Shown: piece after piece, positions 1-9,221 of the stretch
Layout: the number at the start of each line of letters is the position of its first letter
Numbering within the stretch: position 1 is the stretch's first letter
NCBI GenBank assembly: GCA_018985225.1
Contig: JADGIF010000406.1
Span: 1 to 9,221 of the forward strand
Length of the DNA stretch: 9,221 nt
Origin: Amoeboradix gromovi X-113
Taxonomy: Eukaryota; Fungi; Sanchytriomycota
Direction: 5' to 3'
Notes under the pieces: generated by a model
Database searches by the model: none
The model's input: the letters and a program-made list of their open reading frames with translations, nothing else
Told to the model about the DNA's origin: nothing
Program-made: the position numbers and the translations under genes

Positions 1-825
1 GATGTCGCGATTCCACAGTTGACTAGAGTAATCCTCGTTCACGTCACCTACTTCCACACCTCTTCTTCTTAGTGTTGTTCGTACACCTTTCACTGGTCCC
101 GGACAGTGTCCCTTGCTACTGCTCGAAAAAATGCCTGCTCCAAATGCTACTACCACTTCTCGCTCATCGTCTTCATTCAAAAGCTGACAAATGCGTTGGC
201 AAATGTCGCGCATCACCTTCTGCTTTCTTCCAAACTGTGTGAATTTGAGACACCTCACTCTGTTCCTGAAGTTATGAGCCAGTACTGCATCAATGATCTT
301 GAACAGTGCAGTGATGTGCAACACCATTTGATCGATGCTGGCTGTCTTTGCACTTGGCAAAACTGTCAGTCTGTCTTGTAGATCATTGTCTTTCTCCAGC
401 CAGATGCGTCTCTTATTGGAAGCTCGTGCCGAACCAACATTCTCTCGGTACTCAGCATTGCTATAGTGAGACTCGTACTGCTGCCCTTCTTCAGTGTGGC
501 TGACACATGTTGCCAAGTCGATACGGCCAGGATCCACTACTATCACTCTCTTGTTGACCAGTGAGATGGTGTTTGCGTCTCCAGACACTGTCCCGACCTT
601 CACCTTGCTGACAACTACCCGTTTCAAGACACCTTGTAGAGTGGTAGTGCTGATCATGATGTAGTGTGCTTGCAGACTGCAGAGAGGGAGCATGCTGAAC
701 CATCTTCTTGCTGTGTCTTCTTCCCCCTCAATCTGCTGAATACGGTACAACCATCTCAGGTAGAGCCACCATATTTTAGCGAGGAACAAGTACTTACATG
801 CATCGCTATTCAATCCCTCCTCAGG
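1..825 (-). CDS. Fanzor1-like (TnpB/OMEGA family) RNA-guided RuvC nuclease; 3'-partial, internally shortened, possibly a pseudogene
   Basis: Manual translation gives 275 stop-free codons from 825 to the window edge (upstream in-frame TAG at 826-828; first ATG at 691-693). It reads ...RRWFSMLPLCSLQAHYIMISTTTL...KRVIVVDPGRIDLATCV (RuvC-I Asp at 532-534)...YSNAEYRENVG...LPSAKTAS...RCLKFTQFGRKQKVM...EVVVAFGAGIFSSSSKGHCPGPVKGVRTTLRRRGVEVGDVNEDYSSQL (Gly at the canonical RuvC-II site, shifted Glu at 34-36, as in Fanzor1) WNRDI (RuvC-III Asp at 4-6). Sampled lines are about 50-55% GC (1-60: 30/60; 481-540: 33/60), higher than the host genes. Confidence 0.88.
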
Positions 826-935
826 CTAATGGAAGCTTGAGCAACCACTTTGACGCAGTGATTGGCTTTGTCAGTTTCTCTGCGGAAGTATTGAGTTTCT
901 TGTAAATCAGGAGATTCGCAGGAGTGAGGAAGGAG

Positions 936-3326
936 ATGATTGTTCCAATTTATGAAGGCTCAAGTGAATTTACTGGTATGCCCTCGTTTTGTATTCAATC
1001 TATTGACCAGAACAGCAGGTATCTACTCAAAAATTTGTATTCCAAAATTTTTACATTTTCAGATGATATTACTTTATTGGACCAGGGTGTGGATTTTCTC
1101 ATTACTTCTAATGTTAAAGTACCTGAAAGAACCTCTTATTACTCAAACGAATTAATAGACACGGATTGCAAATCATTGTTTATTCAGTGGAAGGATTCAT
1201 TTGAGTCGTTTTTACATATTGCTACAAAGAAGCCGTTCCACATTTTAATTCAGTTTAAATTTGACCCTTCTCCTACGCAAGTGGGACAACTTCACAGGTT
1301 GGGCATTGACTGTCTATTCAAAATAAGTTCTTCTAGCATGCCATACTGTAAAAGTATATATAACGTGGGTGATTATATATCTTTTTGCTTGACATCTGAT
1401 CGGCAGGACAACTTATACTCTACTATAGTCAGTGATTTACACGGCAAAACACTTGGATTGGCTTATTCTAACGCTGAAAGTATTAACGAAAGCATTCGAC
1501 TAGGTGAAGGCGTATATTATTCCAGAAAACGAGGATTGTGGCACAAAGGCAATTCCAGTGGTAACACCCAAGTTCTTATGAAGCTGTCCATTGATTGTGA
1601 TAACGACACTTTGCAATTTATAGTTGAACAAAAAGGAACAGGATTTTGCCATCTAGACACATTTAGCTGCTTTGGTGATGATTTTGGCCTAACGAAACTA
1701 GAGAGCACTATTAATGCGAGACTAAATGATACAGTTGATGGCTCATACACTTCTAAATTGTTAAACAATAAAAGACTACTTGATAGTAAAATAAAGGAAG
1801 AAGCAGCTGAGCTTACTGATGCATATACCCCCGAAGATATAGCATGGGAAGCAGCAGACTTAATATACTTTGCACTAGTTAAATGTGCTAAATATGGAGT
1901 GACACTTCTTGATATTGAAAAGAATCTGCATATCAAATCTAAAAAGGTTACGAGAAGACCGGGATTAGCCAAGCCTGTTGAAGCGCCGCATCAATTAGAC
2001 ATTATCGGAAACGAATATAAAATGCAGTATCATTTGTTTCAATCATTCAGTGATGACTTATACTTAAAATCGTTGAAGCGTGCTACGATTCCAGATGTAT
2101 CGGATAAAGTCATTCCAATTATTAATGCTGTGAAATCTGATGGGGATGCAGCACTGATACGACTTACAATGGAGTTTGACGGTGTATATGTAGACCAAAC
2201 AGTCTTAAAGGCACCATTTGATGAGGCGTTTATTGAGGCAGTGCCTAAAGACACTAGAGAAGCGATAGATATAGCCTACAATAACATTAAGAAGTTCCAT
2301 GACGCTCAACTGCACAATGATATTGCGGTAGAAACAATGACCGGTGTGTTTTGCAGTAGAACAGCAGTGGGGATAGAAAAGGTAGGATTGTACATACCTG
2401 GTGGATCAGCAGTGTTACCATCTACGGCTTTAATGCTAGGAGTACCAGCTCAGAGTGCCAAATGTTCTACAATTGTATTTGCTACTCCACCATGTAAATC
2501 GGGAGAATTTCAGGGTAAACCAAGTCCAGAAATAGTATATGTCGCTAAAAAAGTAGGTGCTACTCATATATTAGTTAGTGGTGGTGCTCAAGCAATTAGT
2601 GCACTGGCATATGGTACGGAAACATGTCCAAAAGTATTTAAAATATGTGGGCCAGGTAATCAATGGGTTACAGCCGCTAAATGTATTGTACAATCTGACT
2701 TAAGTGCATGCGTATCTATCGATATGCCGGCGGGACCTTCTGAATTGATGGTTGTTTGTGACACTAACGCAAAAATGGCGTTTGTAGCATCTGATTTGCT
2801 ATCACAAGCGGAACATGGAGCAGACTCTCAAGTCTTGTGCATAGGAATAGGTTTAAGTGATTTAAACGTCAAGGAGCTAATAGCCGAAATCGAAGAGCAA
2901 GCAACGGTACTGCCAAGAAGTAGCACAATTAAGAAATCTCTGTTACACTCTACACTGTTAATAGTTCAAGACGAAGTAACAGCATTAAAGATAGCTAATG
3001 AATACGCACCTGAGCATCTGATACTACAAATTGATAATTGCAATGAATTTTCAAAACTAGTGAAAAATGCTGGGTCAGTTTTTATTGGACCATGGACACC
3101 CGAAAGTTGTGGGGATTATGCATCGGGAACTAATCACACTCTGCCTACCCACGGTTTTGCTAAAATGTATGGTGGTGTATCTACTAACACTTTTATAAAA
3201 TATATCACTTTTCAAGAGATTACAAAACAAGGTCTAGAGACTATTGGGCCCACAGTCATGACCTTGGCAAATGTTGAAGAACTAAAGGCACATCATAACG
3301 CAGTTTCAATCAGATTAAATAAATGA
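936..3326 (+). CDS. HIS4: Trifunctional histidine biosynthesis protein (PRA-CH / PRA-PH / histidinol dehydrogenase), 796 aa, intronless
   Basis: HisI motifs YYSRKRGLWHKG..SGN, DCDND, FCH...SCF; HisE motifs SYT..L, KIKEEA.EL, WEAADL.YF; HisD motifs GLYIPGG..PST, GPGNQWV, IDMPAGPSE, DLLSQAEH, YAPEHL, GDYASGTNHTLPT. Domain order is the fungal one. First in-frame ATG is at 936 (MIVPI..); the ORF-track start at 924 is a GTG. Confidence 0.97.
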   Translation: MIVPIYEGSSEFTGMPSFCIQSIDQNSRYLLKNLYSKIFTFSDDITLLDQGVDFLITSNVKVPERTSYYSNELIDTDCKSLFIQWKDSFESFLHIATKKPFHILIQFKFDPSPTQVGQLHRLGIDCLFKISSSSMPYCKSIYNVGDYISFCLTSDRQDNLYSTIVSDLHGKTLGLAYSNAESINESIRLGEGVYYSRKRGLWHKGNSSGNTQVLMKLSIDCDNDTLQFIVEQKGTGFCHLDTFSCFGDDFGLTKLESTINARLNDTVDGSYTSKLLNNKRLLDSKIKEEAAELTDAYTPEDIAWEAADLIYFALVKCAKYGVTLLDIEKNLHIKSKKVTRRPGLAKPVEAPHQLDIIGNEYKMQYHLFQSFSDDLYLKSLKRATIPDVSDKVIPIINAVKSDGDAALIRLTMEFDGVYVDQTVLKAPFDEAFIEAVPKDTREAIDIAYNNIKKFHDAQLHNDIAVETMTGVFCSRTAVGIEKVGLYIPGGSAVLPSTALMLGVPAQSAKCSTIVFATPPCKSGEFQGKPSPEIVYVAKKVGATHILVSGGAQAISALAYGTETCPKVFKICGPGNQWVTAAKCIVQSDLSACVSIDMPAGPSELMVVCDTNAKMAFVASDLLSQAEHGADSQVLCIGIGLSDLNVKELIAEIEEQATVLPRSSTIKKSLLHSTLLIVQDEVTALKIANEYAPEHLILQIDNCNEFSKLVKNAGSVFIGPWTPESCGDYASGTNHTLPTHGFAKMYGGVSTNTFIKYITFQEITKQGLETIGPTVMTLANVEELKAHHNAVSIRLNK

Positions 3327-3334
3327 GGTGTTTA

Positions 3335-3919
3335 TTAAAAGTTGTTCAATACCATCTTTTGAACGATGTTTGATTCCTGGGTCATCATTTTAAACTCCTG
3401 AAATGATATTTTACCATCCTTATCTTTGTCACTTTCTAATATAGTTTTGTCAACAATTTGCTGTAGTTGTTCTGGATTTAAATTGCTGCCAACCATCATC
3501 TTCAGGACGGCAAACAACTCAGTGTTGGAAATGAAGCCATCCTTGTCGATATCGTAAACTTGAAATAAAAATTTTAATTTGTCGTCTTTCTTACCAAAAG
3601 CGCTAAAAACATTTAAACCGCGAACGAACTCCTGAAAGTCAACATCTCCGTTTCCATCCGAGTCAAATATCTCGATAAGACGAGATGCCAAAGGATTAGA
3701 CTTGATAGCAGCGATGGATTCAAACTCGCTTTTTTCTATCTGACCGTTTCCATTTTGATCCAATTTTTGAAATCTTTTGTATAGTCTTTGAATTTCATCC
3801 TCTGTGAAATAAGAGTCAATCTTCTCACCATGATACTGGTTTGCTCCTTTCTTAGGCTTTGAAATTGATATACTGATGTCGACTGCAGCATTTGTCTCTG
3901 ATCCCTGTTCTTGGTCCAT
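3335..3919 (-). CDS. CNB1: Calcineurin regulatory subunit B (4 EF-hands)
   Basis: [32 protein letters not shown]-hands [48 protein letters not shown], and LKMMVGSNL...[10 protein letters not shown]. First in-frame ATG is at 3919; the start is uncertain. Confidence 0.95.
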
Positions 3920-3962
3920 TCCCTTCCAAATTGACGAAACACGGGAATGCACAAAACTATAT

Positions 3963-4535
3963 GGGACACCAAATATAAAAAACTAGACTAACTCGTTTTT
4001 AAAGGTACACCATACTGAGGAAATGCTATTATTAATAAAAGTCCTTCTTCTATTATACCAATTTTCTTTCATTGATTGTATTCCTCTTTTCATAATAGAA
4101 GTAGAAGACCCTGCATCTCGTTCAAATGTATGAGGCCTTTGAGCATCTAAGCAAAAGGTGCATTTTCTTAGACGGTACTCTTTTCTAGAGTCATTTTGTA
4201 ATGTTGTACTAACATCATTACTCTTATCTATTTCTTTGAAGTGTAATCTATGGACAGTCTCCCTGACTCTTGTCTTGCCGAATTTCAATTTCGTTTTAAC
4301 TGTTCCAACAACTTAGTACTATGAATTAGTACTATGAATCAGAGGTTTATTTAAAATAAAGATTTGATGAAAGAGTAAGAGAATGGCTGTACAGAATATT
4401 TATTTTCCTTTTATACTCGTCAACTCCGCAACTAGCTCAATGTCCACTCGCCTCTTAAATCCATAAAATTAATAAAGCCGAAATAATGTTCCAAGTGTTA
4501 CAGAAAGTTAGTCCAGTTTTTATATTTGATATCCC
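3963..4535. mobile_element. Non-autonomous TIR DNA transposon (573 bp) with GGG...CCC termini and a possible transposase remnant
   Basis: Left TIR 3963-3993 GGGACACCAAATATAAAAAACTAGACTAACT vs reverse complement of right TIR 4506-4535 GGGATATCAAATATAAAAACTGGACTAACT (3 substitutions, 1 indel). A second copy lies at 9110-9221. Internal minus-strand frame 3983-4288 has KTRVRETVHRLHFK, which resembles a transposase HTH segment. Flanks are TAT / AAT, so no clean TSD. Confidence 0.85.
4313..4338. repeat. Perfect 13-bp tandem duplication (TTAGTACTATGAA x2)
   Basis: Directly visible at 4313-4325 and 4326-4338, inside the TIR element. Confidence 0.9.
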
Positions 4536-4867
4536 AATTGTAAAAATCAACTTGTCTGCTTTTTACAACGGAAATTAGGTTTAACTATTTTTGTAACCAG
4601 TATAGTGTTCCAGATGCTTAAAACATAGCTGTTACATCTAATCCAACTTCCCTAATAACGTTCCCGACTTTTAAAAAAACAAAATTTTCACAAAAAAAGT
4701 CTGAAGATTTAATGCAGTCAAAAAAGTCAAAAAAGAGAGTGCATCGGAGCCATATTGCTCATGTAATCGTGATAAACGGTTTAATCTATAGCTGCCTGAA
4801 AGTGTTTCAAAACTTAAACCTGAAAATCTCTTCTTCTCCTAAAAACAAATCAAATCTACAATTTGGA

Positions 4868-5404
4868 ATGTCTGTTCACGTACCCAGCATAGAGACTGCT
4901 ATTTATTTGTTGGAGAGGGCAAAACATGACAATGACAAGCAGTTGCTATTAAGTGCCTTAGATGCAATTGTTATTGCTTTACCTGAATTAGATGTTGCAG
5001 AGCAGTTACTAATTAAAGAAAAGCTTGTTCACTATTATGAACTTACTCAGCCAGTTGAGGAAGTGAACAGGTTAACCGGGTTTATGACTAGTTTCGCAGT
5101 TATGATAAAGCAATCCCCAATACCATCGCTACTGAATAGTGCTGCTCAAGCGTTGAGAGATATTTTGTTTCGATTGGATAATACCTATCACTTGCAACAA
5201 CATGGAATCTTATTTGTTAGACAAGTGATTAAAAAGTTTGTAAACTTGATGTGGAGACTAGAAACTGAATTTAAATTAAGTGAGAAAATGGTAAATGTCG
5301 CCAAGCAAGGATCTGTTTTGGTGGGCAAGACTGTGGTTGCTTATCATAGTGCTGAAAACTATGAGGTCCGAAAGCGAAAAGCTAAGCGAAGTGTCTCACT
5401 GTAG
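4868..5404 (+). CDS. Hypothetical, probably alpha-helical protein (178 aa from ATG 4868)
   Basis: Long ORF with amphipathic helical character and a basic C-terminus (RKRKAKR). The upstream in-frame part from 4712 is A-rich and looks non-coding, so ATG 4868 is preferred. No family recognised. Confidence 0.7.
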   Translation: MSVHVPSIETAIYLLERAKHDNDKQLLLSALDAIVIALPELDVAEQLLIKEKLVHYYELTQPVEEVNRLTGFMTSFAVMIKQSPIPSLLNSAAQALRDILFRLDNTYHLQQHGILFVRQVIKKFVNLMWRLETEFKLSEKMVNVAKQGSVLVGKTVVAYHSAENYEVRKRKAKRSVSL

Positions 5405-5438
5405 TAAATTCTTTTGCAGCACTTTTATTTATTTTTTA

Positions 5439-5653
5439 CACCGTTGAAGATTTCAAATCTTTCAATGATTTGGCATCTACCTCTCCAACCTTGGACCCTG
5501 CTCATATTTGTGTAAAGTAAGCGGACCAGGTCAAAGACCACGACGCGGTGAGCAAGCATTACTCCCCATCCGTGCCTTACAGCAGTCTTCTGAGCGATTG
5601 GACATTTTCTAAGTCCAGAGAAAAATAGTTGAGATTCTAAATCTTCAATGGTT
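5439..5653. mobile_element. MITE-like element (215 bp) with TA flanks, Tc1/mariner-like
   Basis: Left 5439-5460 CACCGTTGAAGATTTCAAATCT vs reverse complement of 5632-5653 AACCATTGAAGATTTAGAATCT (18/22 identical). TA at 5437-5438 and 5654-5655. The interior is GC-richer than the flanks. Confidence 0.65.
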
Positions 5654-5680
5654 TAAAGCGGAATAGACCCCAAACCCCTA

Positions 5681-6160
5681 ATGTCAAAAATTTATGATTT
5701 CGAAGCCACAAGTATTGATGGTAATGTGATAAAATTGAAAGAGTACGCAGGAAAAACTTTGCTGATTGTCAATACTGCTTCTGCGTGCGGTTTTACTGTT
5801 CAATACGATGGTTTAGAGAAGCTTTACGAGAGACACAAAGATGAAGGGTTAGTAGTTCTAGGATTTCCTTGCAACCAATTTGCCAACCAGGAATCAGGAA
5901 CTTCAAGTGAAATTAGCTCATTCTGCAGAAAGAATTTTGGAGTCACTTTTCCAATTTTTTCAAAAGTTAATGTGAACGGTAGTGATGCTCACCCTTTATT
6001 TGAGTATTTAAAGAAAGAGAAGACCGGTGTTTTAGGCACTAAATCTATAAAATGGAACTTTACTAAATTTCTTATTGACAAAAATGGAAAAGTTTTGAGA
6101 AGATATTCACCCAGGGATGATCCGCTATCTTTCGAGAAAGATATAGAAGCAGTACTATAG
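5681..6160 (+). CDS. GPX: Cys-type glutathione peroxidase (thioredoxin-dependent GPx family), 159 aa
   Basis: Signature motifs VNTASACGFT, LGFPCNQF, FC..NFGVTFP and IKWNFTKFL. Confidence 0.96.
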   Translation: MSKIYDFEATSIDGNVIKLKEYAGKTLLIVNTASACGFTVQYDGLEKLYERHKDEGLVVLGFPCNQFANQESGTSSEISSFCRKNFGVTFPIFSKVNVNGSDAHPLFEYLKKEKTGVLGTKSIKWNFTKFLIDKNGKVLRRYSPRDDPLSFEKDIEAVL

Positions 6161-6314
6161 CTGAGTAAACTTTCTATCATTATCACATGATTTTATTGTT
6201 CCAGTGTATTCTCTTCCTAGACTTTTCTAGCTGTTTAAAATTCTATATTAGCCCTATCAGAGAAGATATATAGATAGACTAATATTACTACTTTCTCTTT
6301 GAAAACTCTTAATT

Positions 6315-6430
6315 GCCTGGTAAATCGGGACTTCCAGTGGGGGTACCTCATAAATTTAATGAGATGCTATACATTCTCGGACCCAATTTCAGAAAATCTC
6401 CCAAACTGGAAGTCGGAGGACCACCTGGAA
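6315..6430 (-). ncRNA. Candidate omegaRNA scaffold (structured RNA at the 3' end of a Fanzor/TnpB remnant)
   Basis: Perfect 10-bp inverted repeat GACTTCCAGT (6329-6338) / ACTGGAAGTC (6405-6414). It encloses a GGGUCC/GGUACCC inner stem and two alternative hairpins (GAGAAUG..CAUCUC, CUCAU..AUGAG). It lies just downstream of the RuvC-III-like motif on the same strand. Confidence 0.4.
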
Positions 6431-6456
6431 AGATGTGCCAATCTCTCAAAATACCA

Positions 6457-6846
6457 TTAAGATTTTCTCAATATGAATAGTGCACTGGCATTGTCTCTTT
6501 CAAAATAGCTTGGCTGATTAGCACTTGAGCATATGTTGCAATATCCCCAACAATAACCATTTTCGTGTTCTGTATTAATGTTTGTAATGTTCTTTCTAGT
6601 AGTTGAGTATTATCGGGGGATTTCCGTTTCTTGGTTGTGTTTGCATAATTAATTAATGATAATGGGTAATATTGTTTTCCAAGGTGTTACTCCTACTTGA
6701 AAATGAGGATATTTTGTCGGAATGGGCCTCATATTCCAAAATAACCTTTCAGAATTATGTGGCTTACTGTTGCTTTTAGACCTAGATTTGGGATTTAAAA
6801 TGAAATACAAAGATTGCTCTAGAAATCCACGTGTTAAAGTAGACAA
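6457..6846 (-). pseudogene. Decayed Fanzor/TnpB-like nuclease remnant
   Basis: 6609->6460 translates as YSTTRKNITNINTEHENGYCWGYCNICSSANQPSYFERDNASALFILRKS*: a CxxC (6538-6540, 6529-6531) followed by an RD..SA..IL RuvC-III-like motif (Asp at 6493-6495). Upstream fragment RLFWNMRPIPTKYPHF loosely parallels RWFSMLPLCSLQAHY in the first Fanzor. Stops and a missing RuvC-I motif indicate decay. Confidence 0.55.
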
Positions 6847-7185
6847 AATATCTTATATTAAAGACAATCCGACTCTAGTGCATCTTTTAAATGGTGATAT
6901 GGCGGTTCAGCATCCTATAATATACAGCATTATGACTCCAGTTATTGATGCGGAAAAGAAAACAAAGTGGAAACGGCGAAAGGTTAAAGTTTCAAGTAAT
7001 AATATTTTGAAATCTTGAATAGTAGGCAACAAACAATAAACGCTTCATTCTGTTTAATTATAAACTACGAGTTAGAACCGTTCGATTAAGTCTTAATTCC
7101 TGGAGAAAATGTATTAGTTATTTGGATAAAGCATTTTATTTGAAATATAGACTGCCGAAATCATAAACTTATTTACTTGCTGCAT

Positions 7186-7662
7186 TTACAGTTGACCATA
7201 GTTGTCAATCAGGGGGTCATCAAATTCAGAAAGCTCTGGCGGGAATAGAAAACATTGCTCTTGAAAATTAATCTGCTCGATTTTTTGTTCAATCTCTTGT
7301 ACCTCTGGTTTTGGCGGATGGAAATGCTTTATATGGCTGTTTAAAACATCTTGTCGGCTAACTTCTTTGCAGCAATAATGACATTTAAACACGGTAACAT
7401 GAATCTTTCTATGCCGACTTGCGGCACTTACATCAGAAAATCTTTTATTGCAGGTATCACAGGAGTAAGGCTTTTCACCCGTGTGGGTTCTCATATGAAC
7501 TTTCAATGCATTATTTTGGATAAATGCTTTTTTGCATATCTTACATATGTATTGCCGATCATCCAAGTGTATTTTCATATGTCTTTTTAAATCAGACCTT
7601 CTTGTAAAGCTTTTGTGGCATAACTCGCATTGAGCTCGACTTTTCGACTCATCCTTAATCAT
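7186..7662 (-). CDS. C2H2 zinc-finger transcription factor (4 fingers), 158 aa
   Basis: CELC..F.....L..HMKIH, CKIC..F.....L..HMRTH, the canonical TGEKPY linker, CDTC...HRKIH and CHYC...HIKHFH, followed by an acidic C-terminal tail. Confidence 0.93.
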   Translation of the reverse strand: MIKDESKSRAQCELCHKSFTRRSDLKRHMKIHLDDRQYICKICKKAFIQNNALKVHMRTHTGEKPYSCDTCNKRFSDVSAASRHRKIHVTVFKCHYCCKEVSRQDVLNSHIKHFHPPKPEVQEIEQKIEQINFQEQCFLFPPELSEFDDPLIDNYGQL

Positions 7663-7788
7663 TTAAGATATAATTTCCAGTCGTCTGTTTCGAATACATA
7701 CGTCAAAAAACTCGAAAGCAAGAAGCACCAGAATAATTTGCAAGTAATGGCTAACAGGTAAGCATCTTTCCTATTTACTATTTCTCCT

Positions 7789-9056
7789 ATGCTTCGTCGT
7801 TGCTTTAACAAAATCAAGGTAACAAAACCTATCGTAGAACTAGACGGCGATGAAATGACAAGAATCATGTGGAAAGACATAAAGGATGAACTGATTCTGC
7901 CATACTTGGATCTTGATATCAAATACTTTGACTTAGGGATTCAAAATCGTAATGATACAAATGATCAAATTACCAGGGAAGCTGCTTTTGCAATTCAGAA
8001 ATACAACGTTGGAATCAAATGTGCTACTATCACCCCAGATGAGCAGCGCGTACAAGAATTCAAACTTCATGAAATGTATAAATCACCAAATGGTACGATT
8101 AGAAGTATTCTGAACGGAACGGTTTTTCGTGAGCCCATCATCTTGGATATTCCAAGAGTTGTCCCTGGATGGACTAATCCTATAATTATTGGCAGGCATG
8201 CCTATGGTGATCAATATATTGCAACTGACATGTTAATAGATGGTCCTGGTATTTTAGAAATGAAGTGGAATCCAAAAAATGGCCCATCAAAAACTTTAAA
8301 GGTTCATGAGTTTGATGGCAGCGGTGTTGCATTGAGCATGTTTAACTTGGATGCAAGTATTTCTGGATTTGCCCATTCTTGCTTTCAGATGGGATTGCAG
8401 CGCCGATTACCAATGTATCTATCTACCAAGAATACGATTCTTAAGAAGTACGATGGTAGATTCAAAGATATATTCCAAGACATATATCAATCCACCTATA
8501 AGCAACAGTACGAAGAAGCAAAAATATGGTATGAGCATCGTTTAATTGATGATATGGTTGCTCAAGCACTCAAAGGAGTAATTTAATGCTTATTTAGAAT
8601 GGCGGTTTTGTATGGGCATGCAAGAATTATGATGGTGACGTTCAAAGTGATATCGTTGCCCAAGGGTTTGGAAGCTTAGGATTGATGACCTCTGTGTTAA
8701 TGACTCCAGACGGAAAGACTATGGAATCTGAAGCCGCACATGGAACTGTCACGAGACATTACAGAGAGCATTTAAAAGGTAAAGAAACCAGTACAAATCC
8801 AATTGCTAGCATTTTTGCATGGACAAGAGGGTTAGGATTCCGGGGAAAACTGGACAATAATACAGAGCTTACTAAATATTGCCATTTTCTGGAGTTAGCA
8901 TGTATTGACACCGTTAATGTGGATGGAGTAATGACTAAGGATTTGGCTCTTGCAAAGAAGGGAGTAGATTTGAAGAGAAGTGACTATGTAGTCACAAAAG
9001 ATTACATTGCACAGGTGAAATTAAGACTAGAAGAATCTTTGACAGCTAAATTATAA
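7789..9056 (+). CDS. IDP1: NADP-dependent isocitrate dehydrogenase, join(7789..8577,8598..9056), 415 aa
   Basis: [67 protein letters not shown]; after splicing ALKG|[18 protein letters not shown]; then [10 protein letters not shown] and [11 protein letters not shown]. Ends in -AKL*. The two ORF-track entries are one gene. Confidence 0.96.
8578..8597 (+). other. 20-nt GT-AG spliceosomal intron
   Basis: GTAATTTAATGCTTATTTAG. It contains an in-frame TAA, and its removal restores both the frame and the conserved [13 protein letters not shown] motif with no gap. Confidence 0.88.
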
Positions 9057-9109
9057 ATAAATTCAATTTGTCGCAACAAAACGTAAATAAGATAAAACAA
9101 TCTCCAAGA

Positions 9110-9221
9110 GGGACATCAAATATAAAAACTGGACTAACTTTCTATAACAACTTGGAACATTATTTAAGAGGCGAGTGGACATTCAGCTAGTTGCGGAGTT
9201 GACGAGTATAAAAGGAAAATA
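9110..9221. mobile_element. Second, inverted copy of the 3963-4535 TIR element (truncated by the window edge)
   Basis: Near-identical to the reverse complement of 4401-4535 except for a few substitutions, a 1-bp indel and a 24-bp deletion. Starts with GGGACATCAAATATAAAAACTGGACTAACT. Confidence 0.92.

What the first reader, a model, noticed from the sequence alone, without database searches (positions are those of the whole stretch)
1..40. Zinc-finger domain cleanly absent: RuvC-II Glu joined in frame to RuvC-III Asp
Seen: ...VNEDYSSQL-WNRDI, with the Glu (34-36) and Asp (4-6) only 10 residues apart and no Cys between them. Established: in TnpB/Fanzor the E..(T/S)S..C motif is followed by a CxxC...CxxC zinc ribbon of several dozen residues before the RD motif. 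Inferred: an in-frame deletion removed that whole domain. This gives either a dead relic or a miniaturised variant, possibly an RNA-guided binder that no longer cuts.
Basis: partly seen in the sequence, partly recalled or inferred. Interest (0 to 1): 0.75.

Follow-up and report, generated by a model that had tools for sequence, protein, structure and literature searches.

The report
Triple-deleted Fanzor transposon relic
The missing zinc finger is real, but it is one of three large pieces lost from this copy of a jumping-gene nuclease (Fanzor), including the half predicted to grip the guide RNA and target DNA, so it is most likely an ordinary dead relic rather than a miniature DNA-binding tool.

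Summary
Observation confirmed: Glu (34-36) and Asp (4-6) lie 10 residues apart on the minus strand, against 35-95 in the 125 relatives that carry both motifs, and a contig from a public run crosses the junction exactly. The frame is a Fanzor1 remnant (relatives fold like SpuFz1). Also gone are 51 codons holding WED beta-strands (junction 615/616) and the first ~253 codons (REC lobe, start codon). A sister protein, P0160 (91% identical), keeps both the zinc ribbon and the WED segment, and 15 of 16 amino-acid-changing variants in the run give its residues, so the ribbon was lost recently, in this copy. dN/dS between the copies is 0.5-0.7 (interval 0.2-1.8), not separable from neutral. Without REC/WED an RNA-guided binder is very unlikely. 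5'-truncated, internally deleted Fanzor1 copies are described (PMC3627910). One loose end: both internal deletions are in frame and no stop is present (about 5-6% by chance, before allowing for why it was flagged). The scan's notes hold other Fanzor relics, none like this one.

The parts
1..777 (-). Fanzor1 coding remnant; open frame, runs off the window's low end about 38-40 codons before the family's stop
   Evidence: tblastn of six relatives; profile hits 610-780 and 10-618 in one frame; 91.3% identity over 219 aa to P0160, 79.6% to P0001
4..6 (-). RuvC-III Asp of the RD motif, intact
   Evidence: R598 D599 of P0001 nearly invariant in 80 relatives
13..18 (-). Deletion junction 1 (Leu|Trp): 35 codons of the zinc-ribbon/TNB insert missing, in frame
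   Evidence: bridged by a 309-nt contig
34..36 (-). RuvC-II Glu in the C-terminally shifted, Fanzor-type position, intact
   Evidence: E554 of P0001 nearly invariant
532..534 (-). RuvC-I Asp of the DPG motif, intact
   Evidence: D388 P389 G390 of P0001 invariant in 80 relatives
613..618 (-). Deletion junction 2 (LKRV|VVSK): 51 codons missing in frame (P0160 15-65, P0001 309-359), three short helices, strand 344-352 and part of strand 356-364, inferred WED barrel
691..693 (-). First in-frame ATG (residue 45 of the open frame); a product would be about 270 aa against 596-696 for whole relatives
772..780 (-). Break 3: homology to the family ends; P0001 residues 1-253 (first WED strand and REC helices) are absent upstream
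   Evidence: contigs of X1 branch at 743-772
778..930 (.). Multi-copy, diverged repeat between the remnant and HIS4; possibly the element's 5' end (inferred, unproven)
   Evidence: summed depth up to 290 against 21.8, loose ends at 799, 807, 819, 843, 887, 912; outer limits judged by eye from those loose ends; no Rfam match
936..3326 (+). Host neighbour: trifunctional HIS4-type gene (PRA-CH, PRA-PH, histidinol dehydrogenase)

Best explanation
This is a Fanzor1 gene copy that has lost three blocks (the N-terminal ~253 codons, 51 internal codons and the 35-codon zinc ribbon) and is most likely a decaying, non-functional transposon relic. Shown: the three losses, the intact D-E-D residues, the open frame, and a 91%-identical sister protein that keeps the two internal blocks. 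Inferred: the internal losses happened in this copy after it split from the sister, probably by break repair at short matching letters (the Leu-Cys / Leu-Trp flanks force at least the 2 letters TG to match, and 5 if both Leu codons are CTG); they stayed in frame by chance; a product, if made, would be a RuvC core without the REC/WED lobe and without TNB, unable to hold the guide, read the target motif or open DNA, so it would neither cut nor bind in a guided way.
For: Three losses. Family and domain map: model of P0001 (pLDDT 92.8) matches SpuFz1, PpFz1 and GtFz1 (E 8e-23 to 1e-19, TM 0.60-0.71); domain names carried over from PMC10097598 and PMC11423790 (passages), where WED strands position the first guide bases, REC and WED read the TAM, and RuvC plus TNB bind the omegaRNA stem. 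Sister: P0160 pairs with the window at 99/98 support; 15 of 16 amino-acid-changing variants listed in run X1 give P0160's residue. No other spacer-less form among 125 relatives with both motifs; exact junction pattern absent from metagenome contigs. Selection: 15 non-synonymous to 9 synonymous changes, dN/dS 0.52-0.70, interval 0.21-1.81, neutral not rejected (p 0.15-0.38); 2 of 8 window-lineage changes hit highly conserved columns against 1 of 31 in two whole relatives (Fisher p 0.10). The sister also decays (Gly at an Asp kept by 90% or more of relatives; it starts at an internal Met). Precedent: 5'-truncated, internally deleted Fanzor1 copies (PMC3627910); 19 of 42 Spu-1 loci full-length (PMC10432273).
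Against: Both internal deletions are in frame and 777 nt hold no stop: chance about 0.045-0.065, before allowing that such a frame is what gets flagged. The dN/dS point estimate is below 1 and the test is weak; the conserved-column test is not significant, and 2 of 8 is itself below the 0.37 share expected at random (p 0.39). The remnant's RuvC core is predicted to fold (pLDDT about 90 over residues 41-220 of 231). The ribbon-bearing branch of the sister was not seen in X1's contigs (no loose end); it is shown only by P0160's sequence. No expression data.
Confidence: 0.88

Rival explanations
1. The protein is dead but the 3' end (outside the window) still makes an omegaRNA that a whole Fanzor elsewhere could use, like Spu-1 'ghost' loci. 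Compatible with the best explanation.
For: The element continues at least 255 nt past position 1; ghost loci keep working omegaRNAs (PMC10432273); deleted CRe copies keep their 3' ends (PMC3627910).
Against: The only near partner seen, P0160, is itself 344 aa and lacks the N-terminal half as called; no whole copy from this organism turned up. The 3' end could not be read.
Confidence: 0.15
2. The open frame is kept by selection: a ~270-aa RuvC-only product acts as a repressor or decoy of its own element (for instance by binding part of the omegaRNA scaffold), as internally deleted P elements are recalled to do.
For: Two in-frame deletions and no stop (0.045-0.065 by chance); dN/dS estimate 0.5-0.7; folded RuvC core predicted; in-frame ATG at 693.
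Against: Found once; depth like unique DNA; changes at conserved Lys and Ile (residues 129, 130); the omegaRNA surfaces need TNB and WED (PMC11423790); no whole element seen to repress.
Confidence: 0.04
3. A miniaturised RNA-guided DNA binder that no longer cuts.
For: [quoted passage not shown]
Against: REC lobe and WED strands are gone; one REC Arg mutation already abolishes GtFz1 activity (PMC11423790); catalytic triad intact rather than mutated; no spread.
Confidence: 0.01
4. The junction is an assembly or amplification artefact near a contig end.
For: It lies 15 nt from the window's edge in a repeated sequence; X1 may be the same sample; raw reads were not available.
Against: A separately assembled 309-nt contig crosses it exactly at ordinary depth; the copy has other independent deletions and its own substitutions.
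Confidence: 0.03

Closest known systems
Fanzor1 (SpuFz1 8GKH/9CEU, GtFz1 9CER, PpFz1 9CF0)
   Same: DPG / shifted Glu / RD RuvC motifs; whole relatives fold like these
   Different: No REC lobe, broken WED, no TNB zinc ribbon; under half the length
5'-truncated, internally deleted Fanzor1 copies: CRe-1, -2, -3 of Chlamydomonas reinhardtii (Bao and Jurka 2013, PMC3627910; passages read)
   Same: Loss of the 5' part plus internal deletions in single copies of a Fanzor1 family
   Different: The carrier transposon here is not identified; no Helitron or other ends were shown
Partial and 'ghost' Spu-1 loci of Spizellomyces punctatus (Saito et al. 2023, PMC10432273; passages read)
   Same: Broken Fanzor loci beside fuller ones in an early-diverging fungus
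   Different: Ghosts are a conserved, amplified ~550-nt family with no ORF; this is a one-off copy with a long coding remnant, omegaRNA untested
Zinc-finger-less and inactivated TnpB clades (RIIIr-4, Ri clades; Altae-Tran et al. 2023, PMC10691335; passages read)
   Same: No C4 zinc finger between RuvC-II and RuvC-III
   Different: Those are whole clades of conserved proteins with changed catalytic residues; this is one copy with an intact triad and most other domains lost
P0160 (EukProt protein named by the tool as from Amoeboradix gromovi)
   Same: 91.3% identical over 219 aa; sister on the tree
   Different: Keeps the 51-aa segment and the 35-aa zinc ribbon; called as 344 aa from an internal Met

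Membership tests
Fanzor1 (descent) | RuvC-I DPG motif | tested here: met
   D-P-G at 534-526; invariant in 80 relatives; feature from 10.1101/2023.08.09.552727
Fanzor1 (descent) | D-X(125,275)-[TS][TS] with the shifted Glu just before the zinc finger | tested here: met
   D98 to S267-S268, Glu264; motif from PMC3627910
Fanzor1 (descent) | RD motif of RuvC-III | tested here: met
   R273-D274 at 9-4
Fanzor1 (descent) | Whole relatives share sequence and fold with solved Fanzor1 | tested here: met
   profile hits GtFz1 and PpFz1 only; top seven fold matches are Fanzor1
Working Fanzor1 nuclease | C4 zinc finger (TNB) between RuvC-II and RuvC-III | tested here: not met
   35 codons missing
Working Fanzor1 nuclease | REC and WED lobe for TAM reading and guide positioning; 600-700 aa | tested here: not met
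   P0001 1-253 and 309-359 absent; roles from PMC11423790
Working Fanzor1 nuclease | omegaRNA at the right end | not testable with these tools
   lies beyond position 1; no genome held
Working Fanzor1 nuclease | Transposon ends and target-site duplication | tested here: inconclusive
   multi-copy repeat at 778-~930 may be a left end; right end outside the window; no partner repeat in the window
Working Fanzor1 nuclease | RNA-guided DNA cleavage | not testable with these tools
   needs bench assay
Exapted non-cutting TnpB/Cas12 binders | Catalytic residues replaced while the targeting lobe is kept | tested here: not met
   D, E, D intact; targeting lobe lost; feature from PMC10691335
Exapted non-cutting TnpB/Cas12 binders | Conserved across genomes as a clade | tested here: not met
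   no spacer-less relative among 125 with both motifs; junction pattern not found in metagenome contigs
Ghost (omegaRNA-only) Fanzor loci | Conserved ends and expressed omegaRNA without a gene | not testable with these tools
   3' end outside the window; no RNA holder listed

The most novel reading that the evidence does not exclude
The frame stayed open through two large deletions because a RuvC-only, ribbon-less Fanzor fragment is being kept, perhaps expressed from the repeat beside HIS4, as a repressor or decoy of its own element or as a co-opted host nuclease domain: a first step of Fanzor domestication.
Probability: 0.04. Interest if true: 0.6.

Novelty: new member of a known kind. Interest (0 to 1): 0.12.

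Why it matters
As a relic it matters little: it adds one more broken Fanzor1 copy and a record of this Fanzor1 subfamily in a compact-genome fungal lineage, where its base make-up (GC3 0.52 against 0.30-0.34 in three host genes) points to foreign origin. The useful by-products are the whole 596-696-aa relatives (P0001-P0010), unnamed candidate nucleases, and four full-length Fanzor1 proteins with only 1-2 Cys in the ribbon, which are the better place to ask whether Fanzor needs zinc. If the bold reading held, it would show a Fanzor fragment being recruited by its host or element.

Tried and rejected
Whole-genome search: no genome held, so copies, ends and the 3' part could not be read. Pfam and PDB sequence searches with the remnant alone: no match. 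Exact junction pattern in metagenome contigs: 0. Related loci: two distant metagenome loci (34% and 48%), none in viral contigs with the alignment, three distant loci on one viral contig with P0160 (30-36%); none close enough to give the pre-deletion DNA, so the microhomology rests on codon logic only. Pattern from the 778-930 repeat in viral contigs: 0. Rfam on 1-1200: 0. Expression: no RNA holder listed; no evidence either way. Idea that 873-938 is a leftover of the N-terminal coding region: weak (E 2.4; 6-9 of 272 host stretches score as high for three queries, 35 and 127 of 272 for two others; no profile hit); not accepted. Idea that the deletions are spliced introns: not pursued beyond reasoning, since they exist in DNA contigs and the sister encodes the segments in frame. 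Idea that the second sequence type is an allele: unlikely, since the adjoining HIS4 contig shows one difference over 743-2000 while the Fanzor types differ about 5%. A bacterial promoter scan found nothing and does not apply to a eukaryote. The low confidence of the model at the junction is confounded by the window's edge and was not used. Paper searches: Fanzor + TNB domain + zinc finger + cryo-EM, 0; Fanzor + sanchytrid, 0; Amoeboradix + transposable, two general reviews, listing only.

Full report
What is there. The window is eukaryotic host DNA with a compact layout: a trifunctional HIS4-type gene, an EF-hand protein, a glutathione peroxidase, a C2H2 zinc-finger protein and an isocitrate/isopropylmalate dehydrogenase family gene. 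Bases 1-780 are 48% G+C against 36% for 913-9221, with GC3 0.52 against 0.30-0.34 in three host genes. On the minus strand a frame is open from 825 to the window's edge.

Family. The remnant alone matches nothing in Pfam or PDB, but protein searches return whole relatives of 596-696 aa (11 hits, 19, 415, of which the best 150 were listed). Four tested relatives carry the TNB domain PF07282. A profile of 13 sequences hits only GtFz1 and PpFz1 in PDB, and a model of P0001 (pLDDT 92.8) has the Fanzor1 structures as its seven best fold matches (E 8e-23 to 1e-19). The remnant keeps DPG, the shifted Glu and RD. It descends from a Fanzor1 gene.

Is the gap real and unusual? Of 204 proteins held, 125 show both motifs by pattern; 124 have an E-to-D spacing of 35-95, and the remaining one is a pattern mis-hit with a true spacing of 43. 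Close relatives have 45, so 35 codons are missing. One public run (X1) holds the stretch. A 309-nt contig from it matches 1-54 exactly and continues 255 nt beyond the window, at depth 23.8 against 21.8 for the unique HIS4 contig. The tool warns that depth is no copy number and that this run may be the window's own source, so I take it as a second assembly that agrees, and as a weak hint of a single copy.

The same copy lacks two more blocks. Between codons 618-616 and 615-613, 51 residues are missing in frame (P0160 15-65; P0001 309-359). On the model these are three short helices, strand 344-352 and part of strand 356-364. Upstream, homology stops at about 777: P0001 residues 1-253, one strand and ten helices, are absent, and the first in-frame ATG is at 693. 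By analogy with TnpB, where REC is inserted between the first and second WED strands (PMC10097598, passages), these are the REC lobe and much of the WED barrel; this naming is inferred, as I had no residue-level superposition. In solved Fanzor1 complexes the WED strands position the first three guide bases, REC binds the next five, REC and WED read the TAM, and RuvC with TNB binds the omegaRNA's first stem; a single REC Arg mutation abolishes GtFz1 activity (PMC11423790, passages). A protein from ATG 693 would be about 270 aa. Its RuvC core is predicted to fold (pLDDT about 90 over residues 41-220 of 231) while the first 40 residues are not (51-60). It has lost the parts needed for guided binding, not only those near the cut site.

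When it happened. P0160, named by the tool as a protein of Amoeboradix gromovi, is 91.3% identical over 219 aa and is the window's sister on a 25-row tree (99/98). It keeps both internal blocks. Run X1 holds a second sequence type across the gene: of 26 variant rows inside the frame, 16 change the amino acid and 15 of these give P0160's residue; the other belongs to a minor third type. Four of the 19 differences to P0160 were not among the listed variants. The adjoining HIS4 contig shows one difference over 743-2000, so the second type is more likely another locus than an allele. I infer that the host is that species or a close relative and that both internal deletions arose in this copy after the split. 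A gap: the ribbon-bearing branch itself did not show as a loose end, so the sister's ribbon rests on P0160's sequence. The sister looks damaged too: it is called from an internal Met and has Gly at an Asp kept by 90% or more of 80 relatives. The flanks of deletion 1 in the sister are Leu-Cys and Leu-Trp; the window's junction is CTG TGG, so at least TG, and up to CTGTG, matched on both sides. That fits microhomology repair but was not checked on DNA.

Selection. Between the two types, 15 non-synonymous and 9 synonymous changes give dN/dS 0.52-0.70 by the transition weight used, interval 0.21-1.81; neutrality is not rejected (p 0.15-0.38). Two of 8 window-lineage changes fall on highly conserved columns (Lys129, Ile130) against 1 of 31 in P0001 and P0002 (Fisher p 0.10). 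All six comparisons for whole relatives' lineages but none for the window or P0160 fell below the random share at p under 0.05 is too strong a wording: five comparisons on whole relatives gave p 0.0002-0.029, the two on the window 0.32-0.39 and the one on P0160 0.08. These lean to relaxed selection but are weak.

The 5' flank. Bases 778 to about 930 are multi-copy in X1 (summed depth up to 290, many loose ends), have no Rfam match and run up to a few bases before the HIS4 start at 936. They may be the element's left end, shared with a larger non-autonomous family as in the CRe elements, whose 5' 200 bp resemble Helitron ends (PMC3627910, passages), but I could not show this.

Comparison with what is known. 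Bao and Jurka describe Fanzor1 families that are often 5'-truncated with internal deletions. Saito et al. found 19 full-length among 42 Fanzor-bearing loci, plus 134 gene-less ghost loci, in S. punctatus (PMC10432273, passages). [quoted passage not shown] Fanzor's DPG and shifted Glu are from 10.1101/2023.08.09.552727 (passages). I read no supplements; the lists of Fanzor loci in those of PMC10432273 and PMC3627910 may already hold this family. The library holds no paper with both 'Fanzor' and 'sanchytrid'. The P-element repressor analogy is recalled, not read. The scan's notes show nothing near this locus and two other Fanzor relics in another genome.

Verdict. This is a Fanzor1 relic with three deletions, a new member of a known kind. 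Interest 0.12.

Noticed in passing
P0073 (593 aa), P0094 (613 aa), P0153 (661 aa), P0155 (795 aa): Full-length Fanzor1 relatives that keep DPG, Glu and RD and a 42-61-residue spacer but only 1-2 Cys in it: natural candidates for a Fanzor without zinc ligands.
   Followed up: partly
window 778-930: Multi-copy diverged repeat fills the whole gap between the Fanzor remnant and HIS4 and ends a few bases before the HIS4 ATG (936); it holds a CCAAT-like motif on the minus strand near 862-868 (motif recalled). It may supply the HIS4 promoter.
   Followed up: partly
window 4401-4540 and 9105-9221: A second dispersed intergenic repeat in inverted orientation (60 nt 98%, 45 nt 91%, 16 nt 100%), with a part copy at 3962-3993; the window ends inside it.
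   Followed up: no
window 5435-5657: 26-nt inverted arms (85%) 171 nt apart in an intergenic gap, MITE-like.
   Followed up: no
window 4622-5404 (+): 260-codon open frame with no Pfam match.
   Followed up: no
window 262-292: A minor third sequence type of the Fanzor (variants at 274 and 285, depth 11.4) in run X1, unlike both the window and P0160.
   Followed up: no
P0001-P0010, P0163, P0167: The family's whole members are unnamed metagenome proteins on 2-7-kb contigs, 80% identical at best; named relatives at 50-53% are from the oomycete Nothophytophthora, which with the GC contrast suggests transfer between lineages (untested).
   Followed up: partly
window 1970: Run X1's contig reads T where the window has C inside HIS4: allele or assembly difference.
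   Followed up: no
L003-L005: One 146.6-kb viral contig carries three distant Fanzor/TnpB-like C-terminal matches (30-36%).
   Followed up: no
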